This document shows, piece after piece, positions 3,651 through 14,865 of a stretch of DNA of 64,000 bases; the stretch's first letter is position 1; each line of letters starts with the position of its first letter. Below the pieces are notes generated by a model. The model had not been told where the DNA came from. It searched no databases and saw only the letters and a list, made by a program, of their open reading frames with translations. The translations under genes were made by a program, and so were the position numbers. The DNA is from Gammaproteobacteria bacterium (GTDB taxonomy: Bacteria > Pseudomonadota > Gammaproteobacteria > CBDBNL01 > G965229495): the NCBI GenBank assembly GCA_965229495.1, contig OZ245880.1, forward strand, positions 2,601,595 through 2,665,594. The letters are read 5' to 3'.

Positions 3651-5372
3651 ATGAATAGCAAACTAATAATCCCCGATCTTGGCGTCGACGCCGCCGAAGT
3701 AGTCGAGATTGCCGTCAAAGTTGGCGACAGCATCCAAGCCGAGCAAGACATCCTGACCCTGGAGACCGACAAAGCCTCCATGGAAGTACCCGCCAGCGTC
3801 GGCGGCACCATAAGCGAACTCAGCATCGCCGTCGGCGACAGCGTCACCAGCGGCCAAATCATCGGCCAAGTCTCTGGGAGCACCGAGTTGCCCACTGGGA
3901 GCGCCGAGTTGTACTCGGCAGGGGAAGACAAGGGGAAGGCTGGGAGCGCCGAGTTGTACTCGGCAAGGGAAGCCAAGGAGAAAACCGGGAGCACCAAGTC
4001 CCACCCACCAAAGAAACACCAAGCAAAAGCCGAAGCCCCCACCGCCATCCCCCTCGAACTCAGCGCCCCAGAAGCAACCACAGCCCAACTACTAATCCCC
4101 GACCTCGGCGTCGACTCCGCCGAAGTCGTTGAAATCGCCATCACAGTCGGCGACAGCATAGAGCCCGAGCAAGAAATACTCACCCTGGAAACCGACAAAG
4201 CCTCCATGGAAGTACCTGCCAACGTCGGCGGCACAGTCCAGGAACTCAGCATCGCCGTCGGCGACAGCGTCCACAGCGGCCAAGCCATAGGTTCAGTCCT
4301 GGGAGCGGGACTGGGAGCGCCGAGTTGTACTCGGCAGGGCAGCCAAGGGGCAACCAGGAGTGCCGAGTTGCCCGGGAGCACCGAGTCGCCTGGGAGCGCC
4401 GAGTTGTACTCGGCTGGGGAAGACAAAGGGAAGCCAAGGGAAGCAGAAACCCAAGAGCACCCACCCACCACCCCCCAAATCTACGCCGGTCCCGCCGTGC
4501 GCAAACTCGCCCGCGAGCTCGGCGTCGACCTCGGCCAAATCCAAGGCAGCGGCACCCGCGGCCGCATCGTCAAGCAAGACGTCCAAGCGCACGTCAAGCA
4601 ACGCCTACAGCAACCAGCCGCCCCAGCTCCGAGCAGCGCCCCAGCAGCAACGCCGCTGCCAGAGATAGACTTCAGCCAATTTGGCAGCTTAGAGGTCATC
4701 GCCATGAGCAAAGTGCAGCGCCTCACCGCCGCCGCCATGAGCAACTCATTGCAAGTCGCGCCGCAAGTCAGCCACCACGACAAAGCCGACATCACCGCGC
4801 TCGAGCAACTACGAAAAGACAGTAAAGAATTCGCCGCCGAGCACGGCGTCAAGCTCACCGCCTTACCCTTACTCATCAAAGCCTGCGCCCTCGCGCTGCA
4901 GCAATTCCCCGAATTCAACAGCTCGCTCGTTGGCGACAACATCATCCGCAAGCACTACATCCACATCGGCATCGCCGTCGACAGCCCGCACGGACTATTT
5001 GTCCCTGTAATTCGCGACGTGGATAAGAAAAGCGTCTTCGCCATCGCCCGCGAAGCTGCCGAGCTCGCCGCCAAAGCCCAGAGCAAAACCCTGAAACCCA
5101 CCGACATGCAAGGCGGCTGCTTCTCCATCTCCAGCCTCGGCGCCCTTGGTGGCGAGTACTTCACCCCCATCGTCAACTGGCCCGAAGCCGCCATCTTGGG
5201 CGTATGCCAGGCGCGAATGCAGCCAGTCCACATTGCTGGCGAATTCTCAGCTCGCCTCATGCTCCCGCTATCGCTATCCTACGACCACCGCCTCATCAAC
5301 GGCGCCGCTGCCGCCCGCTTCACCAACCACCTAATCAAGCTATTAGCGCAACCCAGCTTCATAATGGCTTGA
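3651..5372 (+). CDS. aceF: Pyruvate dehydrogenase E2 dihydrolipoamide acetyltransferase with two lipoyl domains; linkers contain in-frame palindromic repeats
   Basis: Two ETDKASME lipoyl motifs, E3-binding AGPAVRKLARELGVDL, catalytic SYDHRLING; follows aceE. Confidence 0.95.
   Translation: MNSKLIIPDLGVDAAEVVEIAVKVGDSIQAEQDILTLETDKASMEVPASVGGTISELSIAVGDSVTSGQIIGQVSGSTELPTGSAELYSAGEDKGKAGSAELYSAREAKEKTGSTKSHPPKKHQAKAEAPTAIPLELSAPEATTAQLLIPDLGVDSAEVVEIAITVGDSIEPEQEILTLETDKASMEVPANVGGTVQELSIAVGDSVHSGQAIGSVLGAGLGAPSCTRQGSQGATRSAELPGSTESPGSAELYSAGEDKGKPREAETQEHPPTTPQIYAGPAVRKLARELGVDLGQIQGSGTRGRIVKQDVQAHVKQRLQQPAAPAPSSAPAATPLPEIDFSQFGSLEVIAMSKVQRLTAAAMSNSLQVAPQVSHHDKADITALEQLRKDSKEFAAEHGVKLTALPLLIKACALALQQFPEFNSSLVGDNIIRKHYIHIGIAVDSPHGLFVPVIRDVDKKSVFAIAREAAELAAKAQSKTLKPTDMQGGCFSISSLGALGGEYFTPIVNWPEAAILGVCQARMQPVHIAGEFSARLMLPLSLSYDHRLINGAAAARFTNHLIKLLAQPSFIMA
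3874..4414 (+). repeat. Cluster of REP-like 25-nt hairpin repeats CTGGGAGCGCCGAGTTGTACTCGGC inside aceF
   Basis: Identical copies at 3895-3919, 3940-3964, 4311-4335, 4390-4414 (stem GCCGAGT/ACTCGGC, loop TGT); partial copies near 3874, 3985, 4299, 4354, 4372. Confidence 0.9.
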
Positions 5373-5397
5373 CCGTAAAACTCCGAGCTCATACAAT
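5369..5397 (+). promoter_or_regulatory. Putative sigma70 promoter of ssrA
   Basis: TTGACC-17 nt-TACAAT, 17 nt upstream of the tmRNA 5' end. Confidence 0.7.
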
Positions 5398-5414
5398 AGC
5401 GCCTCACACCACAT

Positions 5415-5786
5415 GGGGGCGTTCTTGGATTCGACGTGGTCTAAGAAGCTTGATTGTGCATGCCGAGTTGCAAACCTATCTCGCTAAACTGGGTTTGAAA
5501 AAAGTAACCGCAGAAGACGAAAGTTACGCTGACGAAAGTTACGCATTAGTGGCGTAAACAACACACCACTTCCCCGAGTATTTATTGCTTGTGGTTCATA
5601 CCGCGGGGTCATATACATAAGCTAGCGCTGAAACCGGTCTGAGTACTTAGCGTGAAATCTATCAGACACAGCTCTCGGATTTGTCGCCCAAACCATCACC
5701 GCGAGTTCCACCAGTTTGGGCTAAGCATGTAGATCAACAAGCCGACCAGACTGCGGACGGGGGTTCGACTCCCCCCGCCTCCACCA
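5415..5786 (+). ncRNA. ssrA: tmRNA; tag peptide (A)AEDESYADESYALVA at 5510-5557
   Basis: 5' GGGGGCGTTCTTGGATTCGAC; 3' GGGGTTCGACTCCCCCCGCCTCCACCA with G3-U Ala acceptor pair; tag reading frame ending YALVA-stop. Confidence 0.97.
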
Positions 5787-5789
5787 GTT

Positions 5790-5814
5790 TAGCACACCAT
5801 AGCACACCATAGCA
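5790..5814. repeat. 10-nt tandem repeat (TAGCACACCA)x2.5 right after tmRNA
   Basis: tagcacacca tagcacacca tagca. Confidence 0.8.
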
Positions 5815-5884
5815 AGCCGGTTGCAGTGGCGTTTCCCTTTGAACGCATAGTATTGTGATGGCCTGTGGGAGAGTCAATATCTCG

Positions 5885-6886
5885 TCATGCGGATAATTTT
5901 TTGTCTACATAGGCTAATATACCTTTAGCTGCTTCACTAACTACTGGTCGACCAGAATGCTGCTCTGCTTGAAGAAATCCCCCCACATTGAGAGTGTTTA
6001 TTTCTGACAACATACGCACGTTGTTATCATCGATCAGCGTATCAAATCCAAAAACAGGAACACCATGCTCCATCATTGTTGGTGATATCTCATCTGCAAT
6101 AGCATATTCCTTTGAGGTAATGTCACAGAAATCAGTTGTACCTCCTTGAGTCATATTTGCGAGCCATGAGCCCTTTTTAGGAAAGCGAATCATAGCACCT
6201 AGCACTTTACCATTTACCACCACAACTCTCTTATCTCCTAAATGAACGTTTTTAAGGTACTTCATGGCTAACATGGGGCCATGTTCTTTTAGCCGCACCT
6301 CTAAATCGCCAAAAAAATCATCAAAAAATGTTTCTCTGAGACCATCCCAAACTCTATTCCCATCAATTCTGATAAGCCCCTTGCCACCATAGCCATCTAA
6401 TGGCTTTAAAACAATGGGGTAATCCAAGATGGCAGATTTGATGTCTTGCATATTTTCACAAAGCCTCATCGATGGGCACAAATTAGGAAAGCGCAATAAA
6501 AAATATTTCGAAGCTGTAATGCGGACACCTTCAGGATTATTTATGATTAGTTTTGAAGAGAATCGCATACTTAATGAATCGAGAAAATCATCTGAAACTG
6601 GTCGGTCTAAACGAACAAACAGCACATCAAAATCATCAGGGCCTATATTTATAAGTTTATTTCTAAACCAATCTCCTGACTCACTGTATTGAAAATTGTC
6701 ATCAACACACCTTGCCATAACATCTGTACGAACTGATGGAGTGAAAAAAAAAGTATTAATATCTAAACCTCTACTTGCCACGCAGATTGACTCACATCTT
6801 CGATCTCCAGCCATACTCCTTAATAACGCATAGATTGACTCTCCTTCTCCATGCGTAGCATGATCCGTTATTGCTAAAATTCTCAT
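5885..6886 (-). CDS. Glutathione-synthetase-like ATP-grasp ligase with divergent N-terminus (ATG at 6886; alternative TTG at 6892)
   Basis: GshB/RimK-type motifs FVRLDRP, INNPEGVR, VLKPLDGYGGKG, GDKRVVVVNG, ANMTQGG, GFD...SEIN; AT-rich DNA. Confidence 0.85.
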   Translation of the reverse strand: MRILAITDHATHGEGESIYALLRSMAGDRRCESICVASRGLDINTFFFTPSVRTDVMARCVDDNFQYSESGDWFRNKLINIGPDDFDVLFVRLDRPVSDDFLDSLSMRFSSKLIINNPEGVRITASKYFLLRFPNLCPSMRLCENMQDIKSAILDYPIVLKPLDGYGGKGLIRIDGNRVWDGLRETFFDDFFGDLEVRLKEHGPMLAMKYLKNVHLGDKRVVVVNGKVLGAMIRFPKKGSWLANMTQGGTTDFCDITSKEYAIADEISPTMMEHGVPVFGFDTLIDDNNVRMLSEINTLNVGGFLQAEQHSGRPVVSEAAKGILAYVDKKLSA

Positions 6887-6901
6887 AGCCAATTTTAGTC
6901 G

Positions 6902-8785
6902 CTATTCATCAATTTCGTCACCATCAATTTCACCGTCATCGATTTCATCGCTAATTTCGTGCCCAATAAGTGAATGGCAATCGGGATCTTTCAGCAAATT
7001 TGCTAGATGCTGACCATCAGGATCATAATAACGCAATTTACCAAGCCAATCTTTCACCCGCTTTTTTTCTTCATCACTTAGACTTTTTTCTTCAGCATTT
7101 AATTTGTCATAATAACTTTTTTTAATACCATAAGCACAAATGCCTTGGTAGTATATTGATCGGCGCAGAGGGGGAGTGAGTCCTCTTGTCTTAGAGTCAT
7201 GTTTACCTATCTCACGCTTGTCTATTTTCAAGATCAAATCTTCTGCCCCATTAACAACTTTAACCACTAATTGAATTGCTCGTAAAGCGCTATCCTTGTC
7301 AGACTCATTGCTATTGCTTTCCCATTGCAATAAATTAAGCTTGGCTTTCGCTATAAGTAGCCCAGCAAATCTCCGCAGGGCTTGCATAATTGCGTTAGGT
7401 GTGCCTTCTTTTGTAAATTTATCTGTTAATTTTCCTGTCTTTTTATTAATAAGGCCTTCTAAAAATATAAAGCCTTTATTAAAATTACTGCGTGCCTCTT
7501 TAAATCTTCCGTTATCTCGATTAATAACGCCCCATTTCCAGCTCATTTCAGCATCAAGAACCTTGTATTCATCGTCATCTATTGGCTCGCGCACACTGCG
7601 CATAATGTTGTGGAGGTCTTGATGCATTCCAGTTGTAAGTCTATTATTACTACCTTGTATGACTGAGTCATAGAATCTCTTTGGTAGGTTTTTTTCATGT
7701 GGCCTTGTAAAGGTATAGGGGAGAGGACACTCGCACGAACGAAAGATTTTTTCCATCAATTCGTCGAAAGTTGAAATTTCATAGAGATATATATCTCCTC
7801 TGTAATTTGACACTAAGCGCTTTAGTTCTTCTCCTATTTCCAATTCACTGGTTACAGGGTTCCTGTACAAACACCAATGGAGTCCTAAAGTAAGATAACC
7901 TGGTTTTCTGAGCATATCTCGTAATGGAGCCATGATTGACTCATCATTTCCAGAGTAACCTACTATTATCAATCCAGCATCCTTACAAGACTCGTACAGT
8001 TTTCTTTCCATGTTCTCCTCAAGAGCATGCACCTCACTGCGAATATTTTTAATATTATTGTAAAGGTAATCTCCATGCAACTTAATTATTTTGGCCCTTT
8101 TGCCCGCCATACGAGCGCCCGCGACAGCTGAATCAAACGAGTAAACCACTGGGCGTGCCTCATAATAGTGTATGAGAGCATCGCTTAATAATTCATCAAA
8201 ATTCGTAGTCAGCACACGATTAAAGCGCTTGTCACTTATTAAACCAGCCAAGTATAAGTAGCCAAATGCCGGACGGACATCCTTAATTAATTTCTCTATG
8301 TAAAGTTGTCTCTCAGCTGGCTTGGCCACGAAATAGCTAAACAAGGCTCCATAATCACTATCATCTCTGTCAATTTTTGATTGAGCTTCTTTTTTAGATC
8401 TCCAGAGATCAAATTCTTTTTCCTTCCAGCGCTTAAATTCATCATCATCTGAACTTATATTAGTAGTGCCTGATTTGTCATTTCCAGGTGTTGCATTTTC
8501 ATCACCACAACTCATGCCCAAATTATCAGTGTTTGATTTTTTAGTCTTCTCCTCATCATACACCTTACGTTTCCATTCATTGACCATAGCGCTAGATGAC
8601 TTGACTCCAGAGCTTGTCGAGGCTCCAGCACCAAGAAACAATGTGTACGGAAACTCACCCCGCTCTGGAATTACAATTTTTTCCACAAGAATAGACACGG
8701 GGTTGACATGAACACCATCTACAACATCAGTGTCGGATACTTTGACCACATGCGTTTTCGGTCTTTGATTATGAGATATTTCCAT
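6902..8785 (-). CDS. SIR2-family (SIR2_2-type) putative NADase with helical C-terminal region and acidic tail
   Basis: LFLGAGASTSSG, VLTTNFD, IKLHG, IVGYSGND motifs; AT-rich; C-terminus DEIDDGEIDGDEIDE. Confidence 0.88.
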   Translation of the reverse strand: MEISHNQRPKTHVVKVSDTDVVDGVHVNPVSILVEKIVIPERGEFPYTLFLGAGASTSSGVKSSSAMVNEWKRKVYDEEKTKKSNTDNLGMSCGDENATPGNDKSGTTNISSDDDEFKRWKEKEFDLWRSKKEAQSKIDRDDSDYGALFSYFVAKPAERQLYIEKLIKDVRPAFGYLYLAGLISDKRFNRVLTTNFDELLSDALIHYYEARPVVYSFDSAVAGARMAGKRAKIIKLHGDYLYNNIKNIRSEVHALEENMERKLYESCKDAGLIIVGYSGNDESIMAPLRDMLRKPGYLTLGLHWCLYRNPVTSELEIGEELKRLVSNYRGDIYLYEISTFDELMEKIFRSCECPLPYTFTRPHEKNLPKRFYDSVIQGSNNRLTTGMHQDLHNIMRSVREPIDDDEYKVLDAEMSWKWGVINRDNGRFKEARSNFNKGFIFLEGLINKKTGKLTDKFTKEGTPNAIMQALRRFAGLLIAKAKLNLLQWESNSNESDKDSALRAIQLVVKVVNGAEDLILKIDKREIGKHDSKTRGLTPPLRRSIYYQGICAYGIKKSYYDKLNAEEKSLSDEEKKRVKDWLGKLRYYDPDGQHLANLLKDPDCHSLIGHEISDEIDDGEIDGDEIDE

Positions 8786-8902
8786 GTTATAAATTATTAA
8801 TTTTGGTTATGCTGTAGATAAGTTTTATAAATTACTCACCACAATAATTAATCGCGTATCAATAGTAATCGCTTAAGAATTAATCAACCATAGAGGAGAT
8901 CG

Positions 8903-9058
8903 ATGATTCTTCGTCATACCAAACTAGTGATTTGTGAAATATCTCACTGTTGTGAATTAGTGGCAAGACCACCGTTGCGACGGAATTTACATATTTTAGC
9001 GGAGCGCAGGCGGCGGATGGCAGAGAATGTCAATGATAATCGTATATCGGCACCGTAG
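8903..9058 (+). CDS. Possible 51-aa small protein divergent from the SIR2 gene
   Basis: GAGGAG 4 nt before ATG at 8903; open to TAG at 9056-9058; no recognisable homology. Confidence 0.25.
   Translation: MILRHTKLVICEISHCCELVARPPLRRNLHILAERRRRMAENVNDNRISAP
8933..8948. promoter_or_regulatory. CRP/FNR-family-like palindromic site upstream of the SIR2 gene
   Basis: TGTGA-AATATC-TCACT, one mismatch to TGTGA-N6-TCACA, in AT-rich DNA. Confidence 0.3.
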
Positions 9059-9433
9059 GCTCATCACCCCACATCCCGCCACCACAAGAGCACAGACCCT
9101 CTTCAACACTGGCCATGCCCATCTTGCTGCTGAGCGGTATCGCAACAGCAACCAAACCTATGCGCTCAATCTGAGCAGCATAGCTCAACCATCCTGCACC
9201 GGTCAACCAAGGCGCACAGAACACAAACCAACGGCACAGCCAGGCTTCAACAGGCGTCTCATATCCAATCAAACAACCTAGCCACCCAACTACGACCCGC
9301 CGACCTGTACAATAACCACCCACCCCAAGCAAACCCATACGCCATAACCACCCATCAAGCCATCCACGATGATTACCAGCCCAGCCCTCAATTCTTCGAC
9401 ATACCTCTGAATAACCACACAAAAGCGCTAGCT

Positions 9434-10453
9434 ATGGCATCTGAACTTACTGAAAATATATTGCTCAATGACATCAAATCGATTCTTGAGCACGCCAGAT
9501 CGCAGGTCAAGCAAACCGTAAATTCAGCTATGGTGCAGGCCTACTGGAAAATTGGTCAGCTGATTGTCGAAAATGAGCAACAAGGCAACCAACGCGCTGA
9601 ATATGGGAAATCGGTGCTGCAGGATTTATCGAAGCAGCTAAGCGCAGAATACGGCAAAGGCTTTGAAGAGCGGAATTTACGCTATATGCGCAAATTCTAC
9701 CAGCTCTTCCCAATTTGGAACGCACTGCGTTCCGAATTGAGCTGGACGCACTACCGAGCCTTGATCCGTGTCGACAACGAACGCGCACGCACATGGTATA
9801 TGCAAGAGGCGCAACAGCAAGCCTGGTCTGCCAGAGCGCTTGAGCGACAAATAAGCACGCTTTACTATGAGCGCCTACTTGCCAGCAAAGAAAAAGCACC
9901 CGTAGAGCAGGAAGCACAAGAAAAAGCTCAAGCGACCGCCGAAACCAGTAAAGATTATTTGCGCGATCCCTACATACTAGACTTCTTAAACCTACAGGAT
10001 AAAAGCTACCAGGAGTCCGATTTAGAGCAGAGTATCATTAATAACCTACAGCAGTTTTTACTCGAACTGGGCAAAGGCTTTGCCTTTGTCGAGCGCCAAC
10101 AACGCCTTCGCTTTGACGATGAGGACTTTTACATCGACCTCGTATTTTACAATTTTAGACTCAAGTGCTTTTTGCTGATTGATCTAAAAATTGACAAGCT
10201 CAAGCACCAAGACATTGGACAAATGGACACCTACGTCCGCATCTACGATGAAAAAATTAAAAGCGACGACGACAATCCCACGATAGGCTTGTTATTGTGC
10301 AGTGAAAAAAGTGAAGCTATCGCAAAATACTCCATACTAGCTGACCAACAGCAACTATTTGCGTCGAAATACATCGCCTACCTTCCGAGCGAAGAAGAAC
10401 TAAAACGCGAGCTAGAAAAAGAACGCGAGCAATTACAACTCACCTCGCAATAG
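9434..10453 (+). CDS. YhcG/DUF1016-family PD-(D/E)XK nuclease-domain protein
   Basis: YWKIG...RAEYG, LSWTHY, WSARALERQI, DPYILDFL, ELGKGFAFV, YIDLVFYN...IDLK, GQMDTYV, DNPTIGLLLC. Confidence 0.92.
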   Translation: MASELTENILLNDIKSILEHARSQVKQTVNSAMVQAYWKIGQLIVENEQQGNQRAEYGKSVLQDLSKQLSAEYGKGFEERNLRYMRKFYQLFPIWNALRSELSWTHYRALIRVDNERARTWYMQEAQQQAWSARALERQISTLYYERLLASKEKAPVEQEAQEKAQATAETSKDYLRDPYILDFLNLQDKSYQESDLEQSIINNLQQFLLELGKGFAFVERQQRLRFDDEDFYIDLVFYNFRLKCFLLIDLKIDKLKHQDIGQMDTYVRIYDEKIKSDDDNPTIGLLLCSEKSEAIAKYSILADQQQLFASKYIAYLPSEEELKRELEKEREQLQLTSQ

Positions 10454-10556
10454 AATAATCCTTATAGATTTTGCCGTTTCACCACTTTGGCAGCAAAGCC
10501 AATTGCCCAGCAGCCCATCATGATCAATGATTTTCTGATGCCTGCTGTTGCAGGGG

Positions 10557-12419
10557 TTACGGTAGGCGGAAGGTGGAGAGTGTGTTGGCGTCCTGACCGA
10601 TGACAAATAGTTGGCGGCCGTCGGTGCTGATGGCGCTGCTGTAGCCATTGAGGCCGTCTATGCCGTTGACTTCGTTGTTGAAGCGAGTTAGGTAGGTCAA
10701 TTCGCCACTGCTAGTGTTGCGGTCGAATACTACTACTCCGTCGTCCCAATTGGCGACGAATAGCCTGCTGTTGTCAGGGCTCAGAGAGATGTCCGTCGGT
10801 CCCGATAAGCCGCTGATGCCGTCGACGCCATCTTTGTACACCCCCTGATAGCTGATGCTGTCATTATCAGAGGTGTCTCTGGCGAATACGGCTATGGCTT
10901 TATCAAAGCTTCCGGCAACGAATATCTGCCGGCCATCGGCGGTTAGCTGTATGCCTCGGGCTCGGTTCAAGCCGTCAACGCCGTCCTCGCCATCGATAAA
11001 GCTCTGACGGTAGCTGAGCTCACCACTATCGAGGTCGCGGTCGAATACTACTAATGCATCATCGTTCCGACCAGCGACAAACACTTGCCTGCCGTCTGGA
11101 CTTACTGTTACATACCAAGGGATAGCTAGACCATCGACGCCATCCTCGCCATCTTTGAAAGTGCTGCGGTAGCTGAGTTTGCCACTAGCATCACGGTCGA
11201 AGACGACCAAAGAGCCGACGACTTCGCCAGTGGCGAAACCACCAATAACGAATACCTGGCTATCGTCGGGGCTGAGTGCGATCGTAACTGCGCTGTGTAG
11301 GCCATCGACACCATCAATGCCGTCTTCGTAGATGGCGTTTAGAGATAGCTCGCCGTTAGCGTCGCGGTCGAAGACCACCAAGCTATGATCCAAATTTCCA
11401 GCGACAAATACCTGGCTGCCATCGGCGCTCAGGGCTATGCCGGTGGCGCCTCCCAGGCCATCTATAGCATCGACGCCGTTTTTGTACACCGTTCGGTACC
11501 GCAGGCTGCAACTGGCGCCATGGCGGTCGAATACTGCCAGCGCGTCGTCGTCATATCCGGTTACGAATACTTGTTCGTTATCTGGGCTCAGTTCAACAAA
11601 GGGAGCATAAGCCAAGCCATCGACCGCATTGCTGCCAAAAGCAGAATTCTGTCCGTCCCAGGCTAACTGCTCTTGATAAATGCCGCTGGCGTCGTAAGCC
11701 AGCACGGCGGCGCCGCGCAGGTCGAAGCCGCCGACGATTTCATGGATGTCGTCGAGTATGCTGACTGTGCCTTGGTAGGTGGCGCTAACTGTGCCCACTG
11801 GGGCGAAGGCGATGGTTATTAAGGTGCTGTCGCCAGCCGCGAGGCTGAAGTTGCTTGGGTCGGCGCTAAAGGCGCTGCTGACTTCCAGGCTGAAGCTGAG
11901 GCTGTAGCTATTGCTGCTGGCGCCGCTATTGGTAAACTCAAAGGTGCGCTCGGCGCTGGAATTCACCAATACTTGGCCGAAGCCGAAGAGGTTGGTGGGG
12001 AAGATTTCGGCGGCTTGTACTTCTATCTTGACTTCGGCGCTATCGCTAAGTTCGCCGTCGTCGACTGTGAGGGTGAAGGTGTAAGTGCCAGGCTTGGCGG
12101 CGGTGAAGGTGGTGCTGGCGCTGCTGGTGGAGCTAAGGTCGATTGCCTGGTTGGCGGGCTGGCGCCAGGTGTAGGTGAGCGCGTCGTTGTCGGGGTCGCT
12201 GCTGGCGCTGCCGTCGAGGGTTATCTCGGTCTGAGTGTCGGGCCTGCTGCTTTGTAGGTCGGGGCTGACGCTAATGCTGGCAGTGGGGGCTTGGTTGGTG
12301 GTCTTGTCTCGGCTGCGATTGATCGCATCGGTGCTATCGCAAGCGCTAAGGATTATGGCGGCGAGGGCGAACGGTGCGAGCTTGAGGTGGTTTGGAAAGT
12401 GACTGGGAGATTTAGGCAT
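10557..12419 (-). CDS. Lipoprotein: PKD/Ig-like domains plus lactonase-type beta-propeller (paralog 1)
   Basis: Lipobox ILSAC; LDGSASSDPDND...YTW...GTYTFTLTVDDG PKD motif; repeated VFDRD...DGVDGL...SPDG blades. Confidence 0.8.
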   Translation of the reverse strand: MPKSPSHFPNHLKLAPFALAAIILSACDSTDAINRSRDKTTNQAPTASISVSPDLQSSRPDTQTEITLDGSASSDPDNDALTYTWRQPANQAIDLSSTSSASTTFTAAKPGTYTFTLTVDDGELSDSAEVKIEVQAAEIFPTNLFGFGQVLVNSSAERTFEFTNSGASSNSYSLSFSLEVSSAFSADPSNFSLAAGDSTLITIAFAPVGTVSATYQGTVSILDDIHEIVGGFDLRGAAVLAYDASGIYQEQLAWDGQNSAFGSNAVDGLAYAPFVELSPDNEQVFVTGYDDDALAVFDRHGASCSLRYRTVYKNGVDAIDGLGGATGIALSADGSQVFVAGNLDHSLVVFDRDANGELSLNAIYEDGIDGVDGLHSAVTIALSPDDSQVFVIGGFATGEVVGSLVVFDRDASGKLSYRSTFKDGEDGVDGLAIPWYVTVSPDGRQVFVAGRNDDALVVFDRDLDSGELSYRQSFIDGEDGVDGLNRARGIQLTADGRQIFVAGSFDKAIAVFARDTSDNDSISYQGVYKDGVDGISGLSGPTDISLSPDNSRLFVANWDDGVVVFDRNTSSGELTYLTRFNNEVNGIDGLNGYSSAISTDGRQLFVIGQDANTLSTFRLP

Positions 12420-12479: not shown

Positions 12480-14315
12480 CTACGGCAAATGGAATACAGA
12501 CAGCGAGTCGGAGTCAATTCCAACCACAAACAATTGACCGCCATCTGAACTGGTGGTAATGGCGTAACTATTCAGGTTGCCTAAGCCGTTGGTGTCGTTT
12601 TTTAATTGAGTCAGGTAGGTCAATTCGCCACTGCTGGTGTCGCGGTCGAATACTGTTATGCCGTCGTCCCAATTGGAGACGAATAATTTGCTGTTGTCGG
12701 GGCTCAGGGCGGTATCCGCTGGTCCCGATAAGCCGCTGATGCCGTCGACGCCATTTCTGTATACTCTCTGATAGCTGATGCTGTCATTGTTAGAGGTGTC
12801 TCGAGTGAATACCGCTATGGCCTCATCAAAGGTTCCAGTTACGAATATTTGGCTGCCATCGGCGCTCAACTCTATGCATCTGCCTCGGTTCAAACCGTCG
12901 ACGCCGTCCTTGCCATCAAAAAAGGTTTGGCGATAGCTCAGCTCGCCGCTGGCTTGGTCGCGATCAAATACTACCAATGAATCGTCTTCCCGACCAGCGA
13001 CAAATACTTGTCTACCGTCTGGACTTACTTCTAAATACCAAGGGTTACTCATGCCCTCGACGCCGCCGACGCCATTTTGGAAATAAGTGCGGTAGCTAAG
13101 TTCGCCGCTGGCATCACGGTCGAATACTGACAAAGTATCTCGTGGCCAACCGATTACGAATACCTGGCTATTATCGGGACTCAGCGCTATCTCGACCGCG
13201 CCCCGTATGCCTTCGACACCTCCGACTTCGTCTTTGAGTATAGTGGCCAAGGATAGTTCGCCGTCAGCGTCGCGGTCGAAGACCACCAAGCTGTGATCCG
13301 AGCCGCCAGCGGCAAATACTTGACTACCATCGGCGCTTACGGCGACACCGACAATGCTGCCCAGACCCTCAATACCATCGACGCCGTTTTTATACACCGC
13401 TCGGTAACTCAAGCCGCCGCTGGCAACATCGCGGTCGAAGACTACCAGAGCGTTATCTTCATGTCCGGTTACAAAAATTTGCTCGCCATCAGGGCTCAGC
13501 GCTATCGAAACGGGGTAATCCAAGCCATCAATGGCATCGTTAGCAAAAGCCGAGTTATAGCCATCCCAAACTAGCTGCTCTTGATAGATGCCGCTGGTGT
13601 CGTAAGCCAGCACGGCGGCTCCGCGCAGGTCGTAGCCGCCGACGGTTTCATTGACGCTGTCGATTATGCTGACTGTGCCCGCGTAGGTGGTGCTGACTGT
13701 TCCTACTGGGGCGAAGGTGATGGTGATCAGGGTGCTGTCGCCAGCCGCTAGGCTGAAGCTGCTCTGGTCGGCGCTAAAGGCGCTGCTGGCTTCCAGGCTG
13801 AAGCTGAGGCTGTAGCTATTGCTGTTGGCGCCGTTATTGGTAAATTCAAAGGCGCGCTCGGCGCTGGAATTCACCAATACTTGACCGAAGCCGAAGAGGT
13901 TGGTGAACAATACTTCTTTTTCTTGCACTGCTATCTGGACTTCGGCGCTGGCGTCGAATTCGCCGTCGTCGACCGTGAGGGTGAAGGTGTAAGTGCCAGC
14001 GGCGGCGGCGGAGAAGGTGGTGATGGCGCTGTTAGTGGAGCTGAGGTCGATTGCCTGGTTGGCGGGCTGGCGCCAAGTGTAAGTGAGCTGGTCGTTATCA
14101 GGGTCGCTGCTGGCGCTGCCGTCGAGGGTTATCGAGGACCCGGTGCTGGGAGTGGTGCTTTGCGGGTCGGGGCTGATGCTGATGCTGGCGGTGGGAGCTT
14201 GGTTGGTGGTGTTCGGGCTCTCGGCGTTGGCAGTGTTCTCGGCATCGCATGCGCCAAGGATTATGGCGGCGAAGGCGATTAGTGCGAGCTGGAGGCGGCT
14301 GGGGGATGTGAGCAT
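12480..14315 (-). CDS. Lipoprotein: PKD/Ig-like domains plus lactonase-type beta-propeller (paralog 2); start re-assigned to 14315
   Basis: MLTSPSRLQLALIAFAAIILGAC lipobox; colinear with paralog 1; the longer ORF-track extension overlaps the upstream gene. Confidence 0.8.
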   Translation of the reverse strand: MLTSPSRLQLALIAFAAIILGACDAENTANAESPNTTNQAPTASISISPDPQSTTPSTGSSITLDGSASSDPDNDQLTYTWRQPANQAIDLSSTNSAITTFSAAAAGTYTFTLTVDDGEFDASAEVQIAVQEKEVLFTNLFGFGQVLVNSSAERAFEFTNNGANSNSYSLSFSLEASSAFSADQSSFSLAAGDSTLITITFAPVGTVSTTYAGTVSIIDSVNETVGGYDLRGAAVLAYDTSGIYQEQLVWDGYNSAFANDAIDGLDYPVSIALSPDGEQIFVTGHEDNALVVFDRDVASGGLSYRAVYKNGVDGIEGLGSIVGVAVSADGSQVFAAGGSDHSLVVFDRDADGELSLATILKDEVGGVEGIRGAVEIALSPDNSQVFVIGWPRDTLSVFDRDASGELSYRTYFQNGVGGVEGMSNPWYLEVSPDGRQVFVAGREDDSLVVFDRDQASGELSYRQTFFDGKDGVDGLNRGRCIELSADGSQIFVTGTFDEAIAVFTRDTSNNDSISYQRVYRNGVDGISGLSGPADTALSPDNSKLFVSNWDDGITVFDRDTSSGELTYLTQLKNDTNGLGNLNSYAITTSSDGGQLFVVGIDSDSLSVFHLP

Positions 14316-14343
14316 GGTCGGACAATGTAGTGCACAATCAAAG

Positions 14344-14865
14344 TCATAGGCTTTCCAGTACCTGCCAGCGGACGAGGTTGGCGCGGGTGAGGCGGGTGAT
14401 GGCGTAGAAGATGGCGTGGTATTGTTTGCCGTCTTGCTGGTAAGCGGCGATGAAGTAGCGCTGCGAGTCGACGTCGCCGACGAGGTTGCGGTCATCGAAG
14501 ATGTGGTTGGCCCAGAGCGAGTCGCTGCCGCAAGCGCGACCCAGGCAATCGAATAGTATCTCGGCGTCTGCGGGGAGCTGCTGGCGGTACCACTGCTCGG
14601 CGAATTGCAGTTGGTGGCCATTAGGTAGTTGTAAGACTTTGAGTGAATATTCGCGGACATTGAGCAGGAGCATGTTTTCGCTGTTTATCTCCTGCCCGAG
14701 TTTGCGCAGCGCGGCGGCGTGGGCGATGACCAGGGTGTTGCTGGCGCTGCTGTGCTCGCGTAAGCTGGCGCCTGGGTAGTCTTGATAGTCGCTACTGGCG
14801 TAAGTGGCGCTGGCGCCGAGGAGGTGGATTACGAGCAGCGCTAGTCGGCGCGTGGTGGTGAACAT
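14344..14865 (-). CDS. Exported DUF4892-like protein
   Basis: Signal peptide; ILFDCLGRACGSDSLWANHIF motif. Confidence 0.7.
   Translation of the reverse strand: MFTTTRRLALLVIHLLGASATYASSDYQDYPGASLREHSSASNTLVIAHAAALRKLGQEINSENMLLLNVREYSLKVLQLPNGHQLQFAEQWYRQQLPADAEILFDCLGRACGSDSLWANHIFDDRNLVGDVDSQRYFIAAYQQDGKQYHAIFYAITRLTRANLVRWQVLESL

What the first reader, a model, noticed from the sequence alone, without database searches (positions are those of the whole stretch)
5885..8785. Candidate new defence/signalling system: SIR2 NADase plus GshB-like ATP-grasp ligase at the tmRNA 3' end
Seen: two co-oriented genes 9-15 nt apart, sharply more AT-rich than the flanks, ending about 100 nt from the tmRNA CCA. 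Gene 1 has intact SIR2 motifs (GAGAS, TTNFD, KLHG, GYS) and a long helical C-terminal region. Gene 2 keeps the ATP-grasp core but differs from GshB at the N-terminus (ITDHATHGEGES), the substrate loop (SWLAN for ETRGN) and INTLN for INVTS. Known: ssrA is an integration hotspot; SIR2 domains are NAD-depleting effectors in Thoeris, DSR, SIR2-HerA and short-Argonaute systems; ATP-grasp enzymes form amide bonds. I do not know of a described SIR2 + ATP-grasp pair. Inference: the ligase makes or attaches an amino-acid/peptide signal that switches the NADase on or off.
Basis: partly seen in the sequence, partly recalled or inferred. Interest (0 to 1): 0.82.

Follow-up and report, generated by a model that had tools for sequence, protein, structure and literature searches.

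The report
Mobile SIR2 NADase plus ATP-grasp ligase cassette
Next to the tmRNA gene sits a foreign, AT-rich two-gene cassette, a sirtuin-type NAD-destroying enzyme followed by a glutathione-synthetase-like ligase, that recurs as a unit in unrelated microbes and looks like an undescribed anti-virus module.

Summary
Two co-oriented minus-strand genes lie 9 nt apart: a 627-aa SIR2 protein (6902-8785) and a 335-aa ATP-grasp ligase (5885-6892). They are 37-40% GC against about 60% in the flanks and end 98 nt from the tmRNA. The ligase is not glutathione synthetase: it scores below NCBIfam cut-offs, and a true gshB lies elsewhere in the genome.

The pair is conserved. SIR2 sits directly upstream of the ligase in 7 loci (cyanobacteria, a gammaproteobacterium, metagenomes), often AT-rich against local flanks, and the two proteins co-diverge (r = 0.83). 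The ligase family was found in 0 of 400 other sampled genomes of the same phylum.

The SIR2 domain is closest to anti-phage NADases (SPARSA SIR2-APAZ, ThsA, SIR2-HerA, KomC). It carries a TPR-like helical C-terminus rather than APAZ, and the genome has no Argonaute.

The same ligase subtype also pairs with a DUF4760 membrane protein or is fused to a zinc-ribbon/transmembrane domain. A sister clade sits in a metabolic-looking operon.

Best reading: a new SIR2-based NAD-depletion defence cassette whose ligase controls the effector. The mechanism is inferred, not shown. No description was found in print. No integrase or att repeat was found, and ssrA adjacency is unique to this genome.

The parts
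6902..8785 (-). Gene 1: 627-aa SIR2 protein with an N-terminal SIR2 NADase-type domain and a C-terminal helical TPR-like domain
   Evidence: ORF. Pfam SIR2_2 4.6e-12. PADLOC Aga_SIR2-PNTD1-PNTD2 2e-58, SIR2 part only. AF2 model has mean pLDDT 80.5.
7730..8734 (-). SIR2 catalytic domain (residues ~18-352), with N195 (TTNFD) and H237 (KLHG) invariant in 30 homologues
   Evidence: Alignment A2 invariants. The profile matches SPARSA Sir2 chains 8jkz/8in8 at 1.3e-31 over profile positions 35-308. VIA-align: PsSIR2 Z 16.4, SeThsA Z 15.2. Foldseek top hits are SPARSA, ThsA, DSR2, SIR2-HerA and KomC.
6938..7687 (-). All-helical C-terminal domain (residues ~367-616), TPR-like repeat; R472 invariant
   Evidence: DSSP of the model. 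VIA-align for residues 401-618: Csx29 TPR-CHAT Z 13.0, FKBP TPR 12.6, PlcR 11.4, RapH 11.2. These are helical-repeat scores in the range the tool itself calls ambiguous.
6893..6901 (-). 9-nt intergenic spacer between the two genes (operon-like)
   Evidence: Coordinates. Gaps in homologous pairs are 0-83 nt.
5885..6892 (-). Gene 2: 335-aa GshB/RimK-type ATP-grasp amide ligase with its own N-terminal TDHxTH motif and SWLxN loop
   Evidence: Pfam GSH-S_ATP 7.8e-26 and RimK 1.4e-10. NCBIfam gshB scores 122 bits against a cut-off of 272. AF2 model pLDDT 93.1. Foldseek 1gsa TMq 0.76, then RimK and ArgX/LysX. No PADLOC model matches.
8786..9433 (.). Upstream non-coding stretch. The GC shift from island to flank falls near 9000. 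It presumably holds the promoter, which was not identified.
   Evidence: Sequence, composition. Promoter-like sites are not above chance: 13 found against 10.3 +/- 3.1 in shuffles.
5415..5786 (+). tmRNA gene (context: the cassette ends 98 nt from its 3' end)
   Evidence: ARAGORN. Rfam RF00023, 170.5 bits.
9434..10453 (+). Neighbouring YhcG/DUF1016 PDDEXK nuclease gene. It is context only and was not shown to belong to the cassette.
   Evidence: Pfam YhcG_C 6.1e-57 and DUF1016_N 1.2e-48. PADLOC candidate PDC-S02 4.4e-147. GC 0.42-0.49.

Best explanation
This is a horizontally acquired two-gene operon. Gene 1 is an NAD+-cleaving SIR2 effector of the anti-phage sirtuin type, carrying a TPR-like helical receptor domain. 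Gene 2 is an ATP-grasp amide ligase of the GshB/RimK/LysX group.

Most likely the pair is an abortive-infection or defence cassette. The SIR2 protein depletes NAD+ when triggered. The ligase is the control module: it uses ATP to join an amino acid to a carboxylate, either a small peptide-like metabolite or a protein tail, and that product or modification sets the activity of the partner.

Shown here: the genes, their domains, intact catalytic motifs, conservation and co-divergence of the pair, foreign composition, very patchy distribution, and the same ligase subtype combined with alternative partner modules (SIR2-TPR-like, DUF4760 membrane protein, fused zinc-ribbon/transmembrane domain).

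Inferred only: NADase activity, anti-phage role, and any link between the ligase product and SIR2.
For: Conserved unit:
- SIR2 is directly upstream of the ligase on the same strand in the window and in L003, L004, L081, L083, L085 and L087. L088 also has the pair but is cut by the contig end.
- Ten further ligase/SIR2 hit pairs share identical longest-contig sizes.
- Pairwise identities of the two proteins across 15 pairs correlate at r = 0.83; 0 of 2000 Mantel permutations were as high.

Foreign and mobile:
- Window GC is 0.37-0.40 against about 0.60 in the flanks.
- The pair is also AT-rich against its flanks in L081 (0.38-0.40 vs 0.63), L085 (0.33-0.34 vs 0.51), L004 and L003.
- The two genes gave no DNA match in any of 20 relatives.
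- The ligase family was found in 1 of 401 sampled genomes of the phylum at E <= 1e-70, and that one is the window's own genome.

Defence-type SIR2:
- Best PADLOC models are the Argonaute-associated SIR2 (2e-58).
- The profile hits SPARSA Sir2 at 1.3e-31.
- Fold matches are PsSIR2, ThsA, KomC, DSR2, SIR2-HerA and Avs5.
- N195 and H237 are invariant.

Ligase competent but not GshB:
- Eighty positions are conserved across clades, including K163, the YGG loop, GDKR, E297 and N299.
- It scores below the gshB and RimK cut-offs.
- A true gshB scoring 357.7 bits lies elsewhere in the genome.

Partner swapping within one ligase subtype:
- The SIR2-linked, DUF4760-linked and zinc-ribbon/TM-fused ligases share E18, D96, N302 and V303. 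The other clade has N, P, S and I at these positions (partners).
- On the tree, the DUF4760 and solo subclades are nested among the SIR2-linked ones.

Conflict-type neighbours:
- YhcG/PDC-S02 in the window.
- NB-ARC STAND NTPases and PD-T4-6-like kinases in L003/L004.
- A D5-type primase in L085 and an EEP nuclease in L087.

Precedent for an enzyme-made signal switching a SIR2 NADase: Kongming dITP-KomBC (abstract starts seen) and ThsA with gcADPR (PDB title).
Against: - No experiment, and no defence-island statistics. The neighbour evidence rests on about 6 loci.
- The SIR2 protein also exists without the ligase. L084, L086 and L089 have no ligase downstream and no degraded copy. In 72 more distant SIR2-helical relatives no neighbour is shared beyond 4 near-identical loci. 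The SIR2 protein may therefore be self-sufficient.
- The ligase is not restricted to conflict contexts. Of 82 family genes examined, 55 have the unknown 480-aa protein upstream and 67 have an AstE/AspA-like hydrolase downstream, mostly in Saprospiraceae. One protein is a ligase-AstE fusion. This looks metabolic.
- Three Moorena loci have the ligase alone.
- Neither gene family was found with its partner on viral contigs.
- No integrase or att site was found.
- TPR-like fold scores (Z 11-13) are within the range the tool calls ambiguous for helical repeats.
Confidence: 0.5

Rival explanations
1. Toxin-antitoxin-like pair of the enzymatic-antitoxin kind. SIR2 is a toxic NADase. The ATP-grasp ligase keeps it off, or turns it on, by covalently adding amino acids to the SIR2 protein itself, for example to its C-terminal tail, as RimK does to ribosomal protein S6 and LysX/ArgX do to LysW.
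For: The ligase's closest folds after GshB are RimK and ArgX/LysX, which modify protein C-termini (chemistry from established knowledge). The window's SIR2 ends in an acidic tail finishing in Glu, and so does its 90%-identical relative P0121. The genes are tightly coupled (9-nt gap). One ligase is fused to its membrane partner, P0241.
Against: The acidic tail is not conserved in the other 28 aligned SIR2 homologues. Eighty ligase positions, including the N-terminal TDHxTH motif, are shared with the clade that has entirely different partners. That argues for a common small substrate rather than a partner-specific protein tail. SIR2 occurs without the ligase in 3 of 7 evaluable loci, which is odd for an essential antitoxin.
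Confidence: 0.17
2. The SIR2-TPR-like protein is a complete single-protein sensor-effector, like DSR2 or SIR2-TPR proteins. The ligase is an independent accessory, either a second effector or a metabolic helper that travels with it. There is no signalling link between them.
For: There are solo SIR2 homologues (L084, L086, L089). In 72 more distant SIR2-helical loci no neighbour is conserved beyond 4 near-identical contigs. Related SIR2 proteins carry Pfam TPR repeats as single genes. DSR2 senses a phage tail tube protein directly (abstract start of PMC11850899).
Against: Co-divergence of the two proteins (r = 0.83). Gaps of 0-83 nt are conserved across phyla. The same ligase subtype recurs with other effector-like partners and in a fusion, which points to functional coupling.
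Confidence: 0.15
3. This is not defence but a reversible modification or metabolite cycle. The ligase installs an amide-linked amino-acyl or peptide group, and the SIR2 protein removes it as an NAD-dependent deacylase. That would parallel the ligase plus AstE/AspA-type amidohydrolase arrangement of the sister clade.
For: The sister clade pairs, and once fuses, the ligase with an amidohydrolase. Classical sirtuins are deacylases and appear among the fold matches at Z 10-13. An Atlas lead links the 480-aa partner to ATP-grasp (0.94) and GshA (0.91) families (a lead only).
Against: The SIR2 domain is of the SIR2_2/defence type, and its best matches are all NADases. SIR2 occupies the upstream slot, not the AstE slot downstream. 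Distribution is sporadic and composition foreign. The alternative partners are membrane proteins, not hydrolases.
Confidence: 0.1
4. Chance adjacency of a spare glutathione synthetase and an unrelated sirtuin.
For: Public sources label many homologues 'glutathione synthase'.
Against: It scores below the gshB equivalog cut-offs (122 vs 272 bits; 114 vs 299). A true gshB is present elsewhere. The pair recurs in 7 loci from different phyla and co-diverges.
Confidence: 0.02

Closest known systems
SPARSA / short prokaryotic Argonaute with SIR2-APAZ (e.g. Geobacter sulfurreducens, PDB 8jkz, 8in8)
   Same: This is the closest SIR2 domain by sequence (profile 1.3e-31 over the SIR2 domain; PADLOC 2e-58) and by Foldseek (1.1e-11). 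The TTNFD, K(L/I)HGD and GYSG(x)DE motifs align.
   Different: The match stops at the end of the SIR2 domain (chain residues 23-299 of 584). The C-terminus here is all-helical and TPR-like, not APAZ. No Piwi protein is found in the whole genome. The partner gene is an ATP-grasp ligase.
Thoeris (ThsA SIR2-SLOG + ThsB TIR) and Kongming (KomA/KomB/KomC)
   Same: Both have a SIR2 NADase effector switched by a small molecule made by a partner enzyme: gcADPR (PDB title 8bto) and dITP (abstract starts). ThsA and KomC are among the best fold matches (Z 15.2 and 13.8). This is the working analogy for the ligase.
   Different: No SLOG domain was detected. The two flanking genes are an ATP-grasp ligase and a YhcG nuclease by Pfam, so neither neighbour is a TIR, deaminase or HAM1 gene. 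The candidate signal-making enzyme is an ATP-grasp amide ligase, which would make a peptide-like product, not a nucleotide.
DSR2 and single-gene SIR2-TPR proteins
   Same: N-terminal SIR2 plus a C-terminal alpha-solenoid/TPR-type domain. Related SIR2 proteins with Pfam TPR repeats appear. DSR2 chains appear in Foldseek at TMq 0.27-0.31.
   Different: It is much shorter than DSR2 (627 aa against about 1000). The global fold match is weak. Here a conserved second gene is attached.
Glutathione synthetase GshB (E. coli 1gsa), RimK, LysX/ArgX
   Same: Same ATP-grasp fold: 1gsa TMq 0.76, RimK 0.65, ArgX 0.64. Shared GDKR, Gly-rich loop and E-x-N metal motif.
   Different: It scores below all NCBIfam cut-offs. 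No Pfam match was found to the GshB N-terminal domain. It has its own invariant N-terminal TDHxTH motif and an SWLxN loop where E. coli GshB has ETRGN. The genome keeps a true gshB.

Membership tests
SPARSA (short pAgo + SIR2-APAZ) | SIR2 domain of the Argonaute-associated subfamily | tested here: met
   PADLOC Aga_SIR2-PNTD1-PNTD2 2e-58. PDB profile hit 8jkz/8in8 at 1.3e-31.
SPARSA (short pAgo + SIR2-APAZ) | APAZ domain C-terminal to SIR2 | tested here: not met
   Sequence and Foldseek matches end with the SIR2 domain. Residues 367-616 are predicted all-helical and TPR-like.
SPARSA (short pAgo + SIR2-APAZ) | Adjacent short Argonaute (MID-PIWI) gene | tested here: not met
   The neighbours are an ATP-grasp ligase and YhcG. 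Pfam Piwi gave 0 matches in the whole 2.68-Mb genome, which is 95.9% complete.
Thoeris | ThsA with a SLOG (or other signal-binding) domain, plus a TIR-domain ThsB gene | tested here: not met
   Only weak ThsA SIR2-part hits (6e-4). The C-terminus is helical-repeat. The two flanking genes carry ATP-grasp and YhcG domains by Pfam, not TIR.
SIR2-HerA / Nezha | Adjacent HerA ATPase | tested here: not met
   The only co-oriented neighbour is the ATP-grasp ligase. SIR2-HerA chains match only at the SIR2 fold level.
DSR1/DSR2 | Single ~1000-aa protein: SIR2 plus a long helical sensor domain | tested here: inconclusive
   The protein is 627 aa. Foldseek gives DSR2 TMq 0.27-0.31 with rmsd 18-25.
Glutathione synthetase GshB (NCBIfam NF003573 / TIGR01380) | Score above the equivalog cut-off | tested here: not met
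   122.4 bits against 272, and 114.3 against 299.05. The own-genome search gave 113.6 bits (below cut-off) here against 357.7 bits for the true gshB.
RimK family (TIGR00768) | Score above the subfamily cut-off | tested here: not met
   57 bits against 143.4.
ATP-grasp superfamily (GshB/RimK/LysX group) | ATP-grasp fold with a Lys for ATP, a Gly-rich loop and an acidic/Asn metal site | tested here: met
   Pfam GSH-S_ATP and RimK. Invariant K163, Y168-G170, D220-R222, E297 and N299. Model pLDDT 93.1 and 1gsa TMq 0.76.
Anti-phage defence system (generic) | Protects cells from phage; enriched in defence islands | not testable with these tools
   Only anecdotal neighbours are available.

The most novel reading that the evidence does not exclude
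An ATP-grasp ligase acts as the signal generator of a bacterial immune system. On infection it makes a small amide-linked (peptide-like) messenger that is read by the TPR-like domain of the SIR2 NADase, and, in sister cassettes, by DUF4760 or zinc-ribbon membrane effectors. That would be a non-nucleotide second-messenger class in prokaryotic immunity, with one ligase subtype driving interchangeable effectors.
Probability: 0.2. Interest if true: 0.85.

Novelty: new variant of a known kind. Interest (0 to 1): 0.62.

Why it matters
SIR2 NADases are a recurrent effector of bacterial immunity. Every characterised system couples them to a nucleic-acid sensor (Argonaute), a helicase/ATPase (HerA, STAND), a direct protein sensor (DSR2) or a nucleotide-signal enzyme (TIR in Thoeris, the Kongming enzymes). 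An ATP-grasp amide ligase as the fixed partner of SIR2 and of membrane effectors has not been described in any paper I could search.

If the ligase makes or attaches a peptide-type signal, it would add a new chemistry to immune signalling and give a small, easily cloned 2.9-kb system to test. If the ligase is instead an enzymatic antitoxin, it would be a new kind of toxin control.

The work also marks a large, unannotated ligase family that is routinely mislabelled 'glutathione synthase'.

Tried and rejected
- **Co-fold of SIR2 with the ligase** (complex prediction): verdict 'no answer' (score 0.00, controls not run). It is not used as evidence either way.
- **Island borders by synteny:** ssrA regions of three relatives (G001, G017, G009) share no neighbouring genes with the window, so the borders could not be set by comparison.
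- **att sites and integrase:** none found.
- **Promoter and terminator scan:** counts are not above shuffles (13 vs 10.3 +/- 3.1; 5 vs 2.5 +/- 1.9). No terminator was found between the ligase stop and the tmRNA.
- **Rfam:** only the tmRNA in 5300-10600.
- **Expression:** no RNA holder was listed for the stretch. The four DNA runs come from one study and may be the source sample.
- **Viral contigs:** 0 of 52 SIR2-domain loci had the ligase. The ligase profile found no relative.
- **Relation between the 480-aa partner and SIR2:** hhalign probability 0.1%. It has no PDB sequence match and no Pfam or PADLOC hit. The Atlas gives only leads: ATP-grasp 0.94, GshA 0.91.
- **N-terminus of P0241 against SIR2:** no relation.
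- **DUF4760 in the literature:** one listing only, not read.
- **PMC9503650:** the passages mentioning ATP-grasp concern DNA ligases and a CDC123 reference, not a SIR2 partner.
- **Limits of the literature search:** supplementary tables of defence-system surveys were closed. A SIR2 + ATP-grasp candidate listed only there would have been missed.
- **Dropped rows:** L042, L049 and L078 were dropped because my simple gene caller did not return the ligase ORF there.
- **Tree sampling:** it used 25 randomly drawn loci of the U480/AstE-linked set, not all of them, and a quick search with SH-aLRT support only.


Full report
**1. What is there**

Two minus-strand ORFs fill 5885-8785.
- The first is a 627-aa protein (6902-8785).
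- The second is a 335-aa protein (5885-6892). It starts at a TTG, with an ATG two codons later, so the gap between the genes is 9 or 15 nt.

The tmRNA gene is at 5415-5786 on the plus strand (Rfam 170.5 bits). The ligase stop is therefore 98 nt from its CCA end. GC is 0.37-0.40 across 6001-8750, against 0.59-0.65 upstream and 0.55-0.62 beyond 10500.

There is no trace of the integration machinery that the title implies:
- no integrase ORF;
- no second copy of the tmRNA 3' end;
- no flanking repeats.

**2. The two proteins**

*Gene 1 (SIR2).*
- It carries Pfam SIR2_2 (4.6e-12).
- Its best PADLOC models are the Argonaute-associated SIR2 (2e-58), but only over residues 140-350.
- A profile of 30 homologues (A2) hits the Sir2 chain of the SPARSA complexes 8jkz/8in8 at 1.3e-31, again only over the SIR2 domain.
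- N195 (TTNFD) and H237 (KLHG) are invariant.
- The AlphaFold2 model (pLDDT 80.5) has a Rossmann-type SIR2 domain at about residues 18-352 and an all-helical domain at 367-616.
- Foldseek ranks SPARSA, ThsA, DSR2, SIR2-HerA and KomC first.
- VIA-align gives PsSIR2 Z 16.4, SeThsA Z 15.2 and KomBC Z 13.8 for the N-terminal domain.
- For residues 401-618 it gives TPR-type repeats: Csx29 TPR Z 13.0, FKBP TPR 12.6, PlcR 11.4, RapH 11.2. The tool warns that such Z values for helical repeats may reflect only a common arrangement, so 'TPR-like' describes the fold class and no more.
- There is no APAZ domain, and no Piwi protein in the whole genome.

*Gene 2 (ATP-grasp ligase).*
- It is an ATP-grasp enzyme (GSH-S_ATP 7.8e-26, RimK 1.4e-10).
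- Its model is very confident (pLDDT 93.1). It superposes best on E. coli glutathione synthetase (TMq 0.76), then on RimK and ArgX/LysX.
- It is not GshB. It scores 122 bits against a cut-off of 272, and 114 against 299. No GshB N-terminal Pfam domain was reported. A true gshB scoring 357.7 bits lies 1.1 Mb away.
- It has no PADLOC model.

**3. Is the pair real?**

Homologue lists for the two proteins share ten identical 'longest contig' sizes, including a Sodalinema genome.

A scan of species genomes with the ligase profile kept 80 loci. SIR2 lies directly upstream in three of them: L003 and L004 (cyanobacteria) and L081 (a gammaproteobacterial symbiont).

A metagenome scan with the SIR2 profile gave eight full-length relatives, L083-L090:
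- the ligase follows in L083, L085, L087 and L088 (L088 is cut by the contig end);
- it does not follow in L084, L086 or L089, and no degraded copy is present;
- L090 is too short to tell.

That is 4 of 7 evaluable loci. Gaps between the two genes are 0-83 nt.

The pair is AT-rich against its own flanks in L081, L085, L004 and L003.

It is very patchy. No DNA match to the two genes was found in 20 relatives. The ligase family was found at E <= 1e-70 in only 1 of 401 sampled genomes of the phylum, the window's own.

None of 11 related loci has a tRNA or tmRNA. The ssrA position is therefore peculiar to this genome.

**4. The wider ligase family**

Of 82 ligase genes examined:
- 55 have an unknown 480-aa protein upstream;
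- 67 have an AstE/AspA-type amidohydrolase downstream, often followed by a PLP-dependent decarboxylase, mostly in Saprospiraceae;
- one protein fuses the ligase to AstE (P0242).

These form one clade (SH-aLRT 90). The SIR2-linked ligases fill the rest of the tree (quick search, partial sampling). Nested among the SIR2-linked ones are:
- two ligases preceded by DUF4760 proteins, each with one N-terminal hydrophobic helix;
- a Moorena group with no partner.

A 659-aa protein (P0241) fuses a zinc-ribbon plus multi-pass membrane domain to the ligase.

The SIR2-, DUF4760- and membrane-fused ligases share E18, D96, N302 and V303. The other clade has N, P, S and I at these positions. Eighty positions, including the N-terminal TDHxTH motif and the SWLxN loop, are common to both clades.

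I draw two inferences:
- One ligase subtype is combined with interchangeable effector-like partners, a hallmark of conflict systems.
- The ligase's substrates are probably common small molecules rather than the partner proteins, because the substrate-side residues do not change with the partner.

**5. Context**

- Window: a YhcG/DUF1016 nuclease (PADLOC candidate PDC-S02).
- L003 and L004: NB-ARC STAND NTPases upstream and two kinases matching PD-T4-6 downstream.
- L085: a D5-type primase.
- L087: an EEP nuclease.

This is suggestive, not statistical.

The more distant SIR2-helical relatives (72 loci) share no conserved neighbour; the largest neighbour cluster spans 4 near-identical loci. The SIR2-helical architecture therefore also works as a single gene.

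**6. Mechanism**

Most likely (confidence about 0.5 overall) this is an NAD+-depleting abortive-infection cassette in which the ligase controls the effector. The precedents for an enzyme-made signal switching a SIR2 NADase are:
- Thoeris (PDB title 8bto);
- Kongming, where dITP activates KomBC (abstract starts of 10.1101/2024.12.20.629578 and PMC13454610).

Here the signal would be an amide or peptide product. Its receiver would be the TPR-like domain, whose only invariant residue is R472.

The rivals are:
- an enzymatic antitoxin that modifies SIR2 (the acidic, Glu-ended tail of the window's protein fits, but it is not conserved);
- a self-sufficient SIR2 sensor with an unrelated accessory ligase;
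- a non-defence ligase/deacylase cycle.

The chemistry of GshB, RimK and LysX that I use is established knowledge recalled by me, supported only by the PDB titles.

**7. Novelty**

Five full-text searches found no paper describing the pair:
- SIR2 + ATP-grasp + defense;
- SIR2 + ATP-grasp + NADase;
- ATP-grasp + anti-phage + defense system + ligase;
- RimK + SIR2 + phage;
- glutathione synthetase + SIR2 + defense island.

The one candidate text I opened mentions ATP-grasp only for DNA ligases. Subscription papers and supplementary tables were not searchable.

I rate this a new variant of a known kind: SIR2 NAD-depletion defence with an unprecedented partner.

Noticed in passing
L012:5156-10522 and about 55 similar loci (L008-L082): Conserved operon, mostly in Saprospiraceae: an unknown 480-aa protein (no Pfam, PADLOC or PDB match; Atlas leads to ATP-grasp and GshA families), then this ATP-grasp ligase, then an AstE/AspA-like amidohydrolase, often followed by a small protein and a PLP decarboxylase. 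A ligase-AstE fusion exists (P0242). It looks like an uncharacterised small-peptide pathway.
   Followed up: partly
G000:C1:1854679-1854987 (L227:1060-2721): A second SIR2_2 protein (553-aa ORF) elsewhere in the same genome. Its best PADLOC models are also the Argonaute-associated SIR2 (2.7e-26), although the genome has no Piwi protein.
   Followed up: partly
window 5791-5815: A tandem duplication of a 10-nt unit (AGCACACCAT) lies immediately after the tmRNA 3' end.
   Followed up: no
window 10557-12419 and 12480-14660 (-): Two paralogous large proteins (620 and 726 aa) with internal repeats of about 159 nt period. Their DNA is 79% identical to each other, and further repeat copies lie near the contig end.
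   Followed up: no
window 9027-9422: A C/A-rich, ORF-poor stretch between the cassette and yhcG, with three copies of AATAACCACCCA-like words. The GC shift falls just before it.
   Followed up: no
window 5415-5786: The tmRNA tag peptide AEDESYADESYALVA contains an internal DESYA duplication. Three relatives have shorter tags ending in NYALAA or SYALAA.
   Followed up: no
P0241 (659 aa; metagenomic): A zinc-ribbon plus multi-pass membrane domain is fused to the conflict-type ligase subtype. It has no Pfam or PADLOC family for the N-terminal half.
   Followed up: partly
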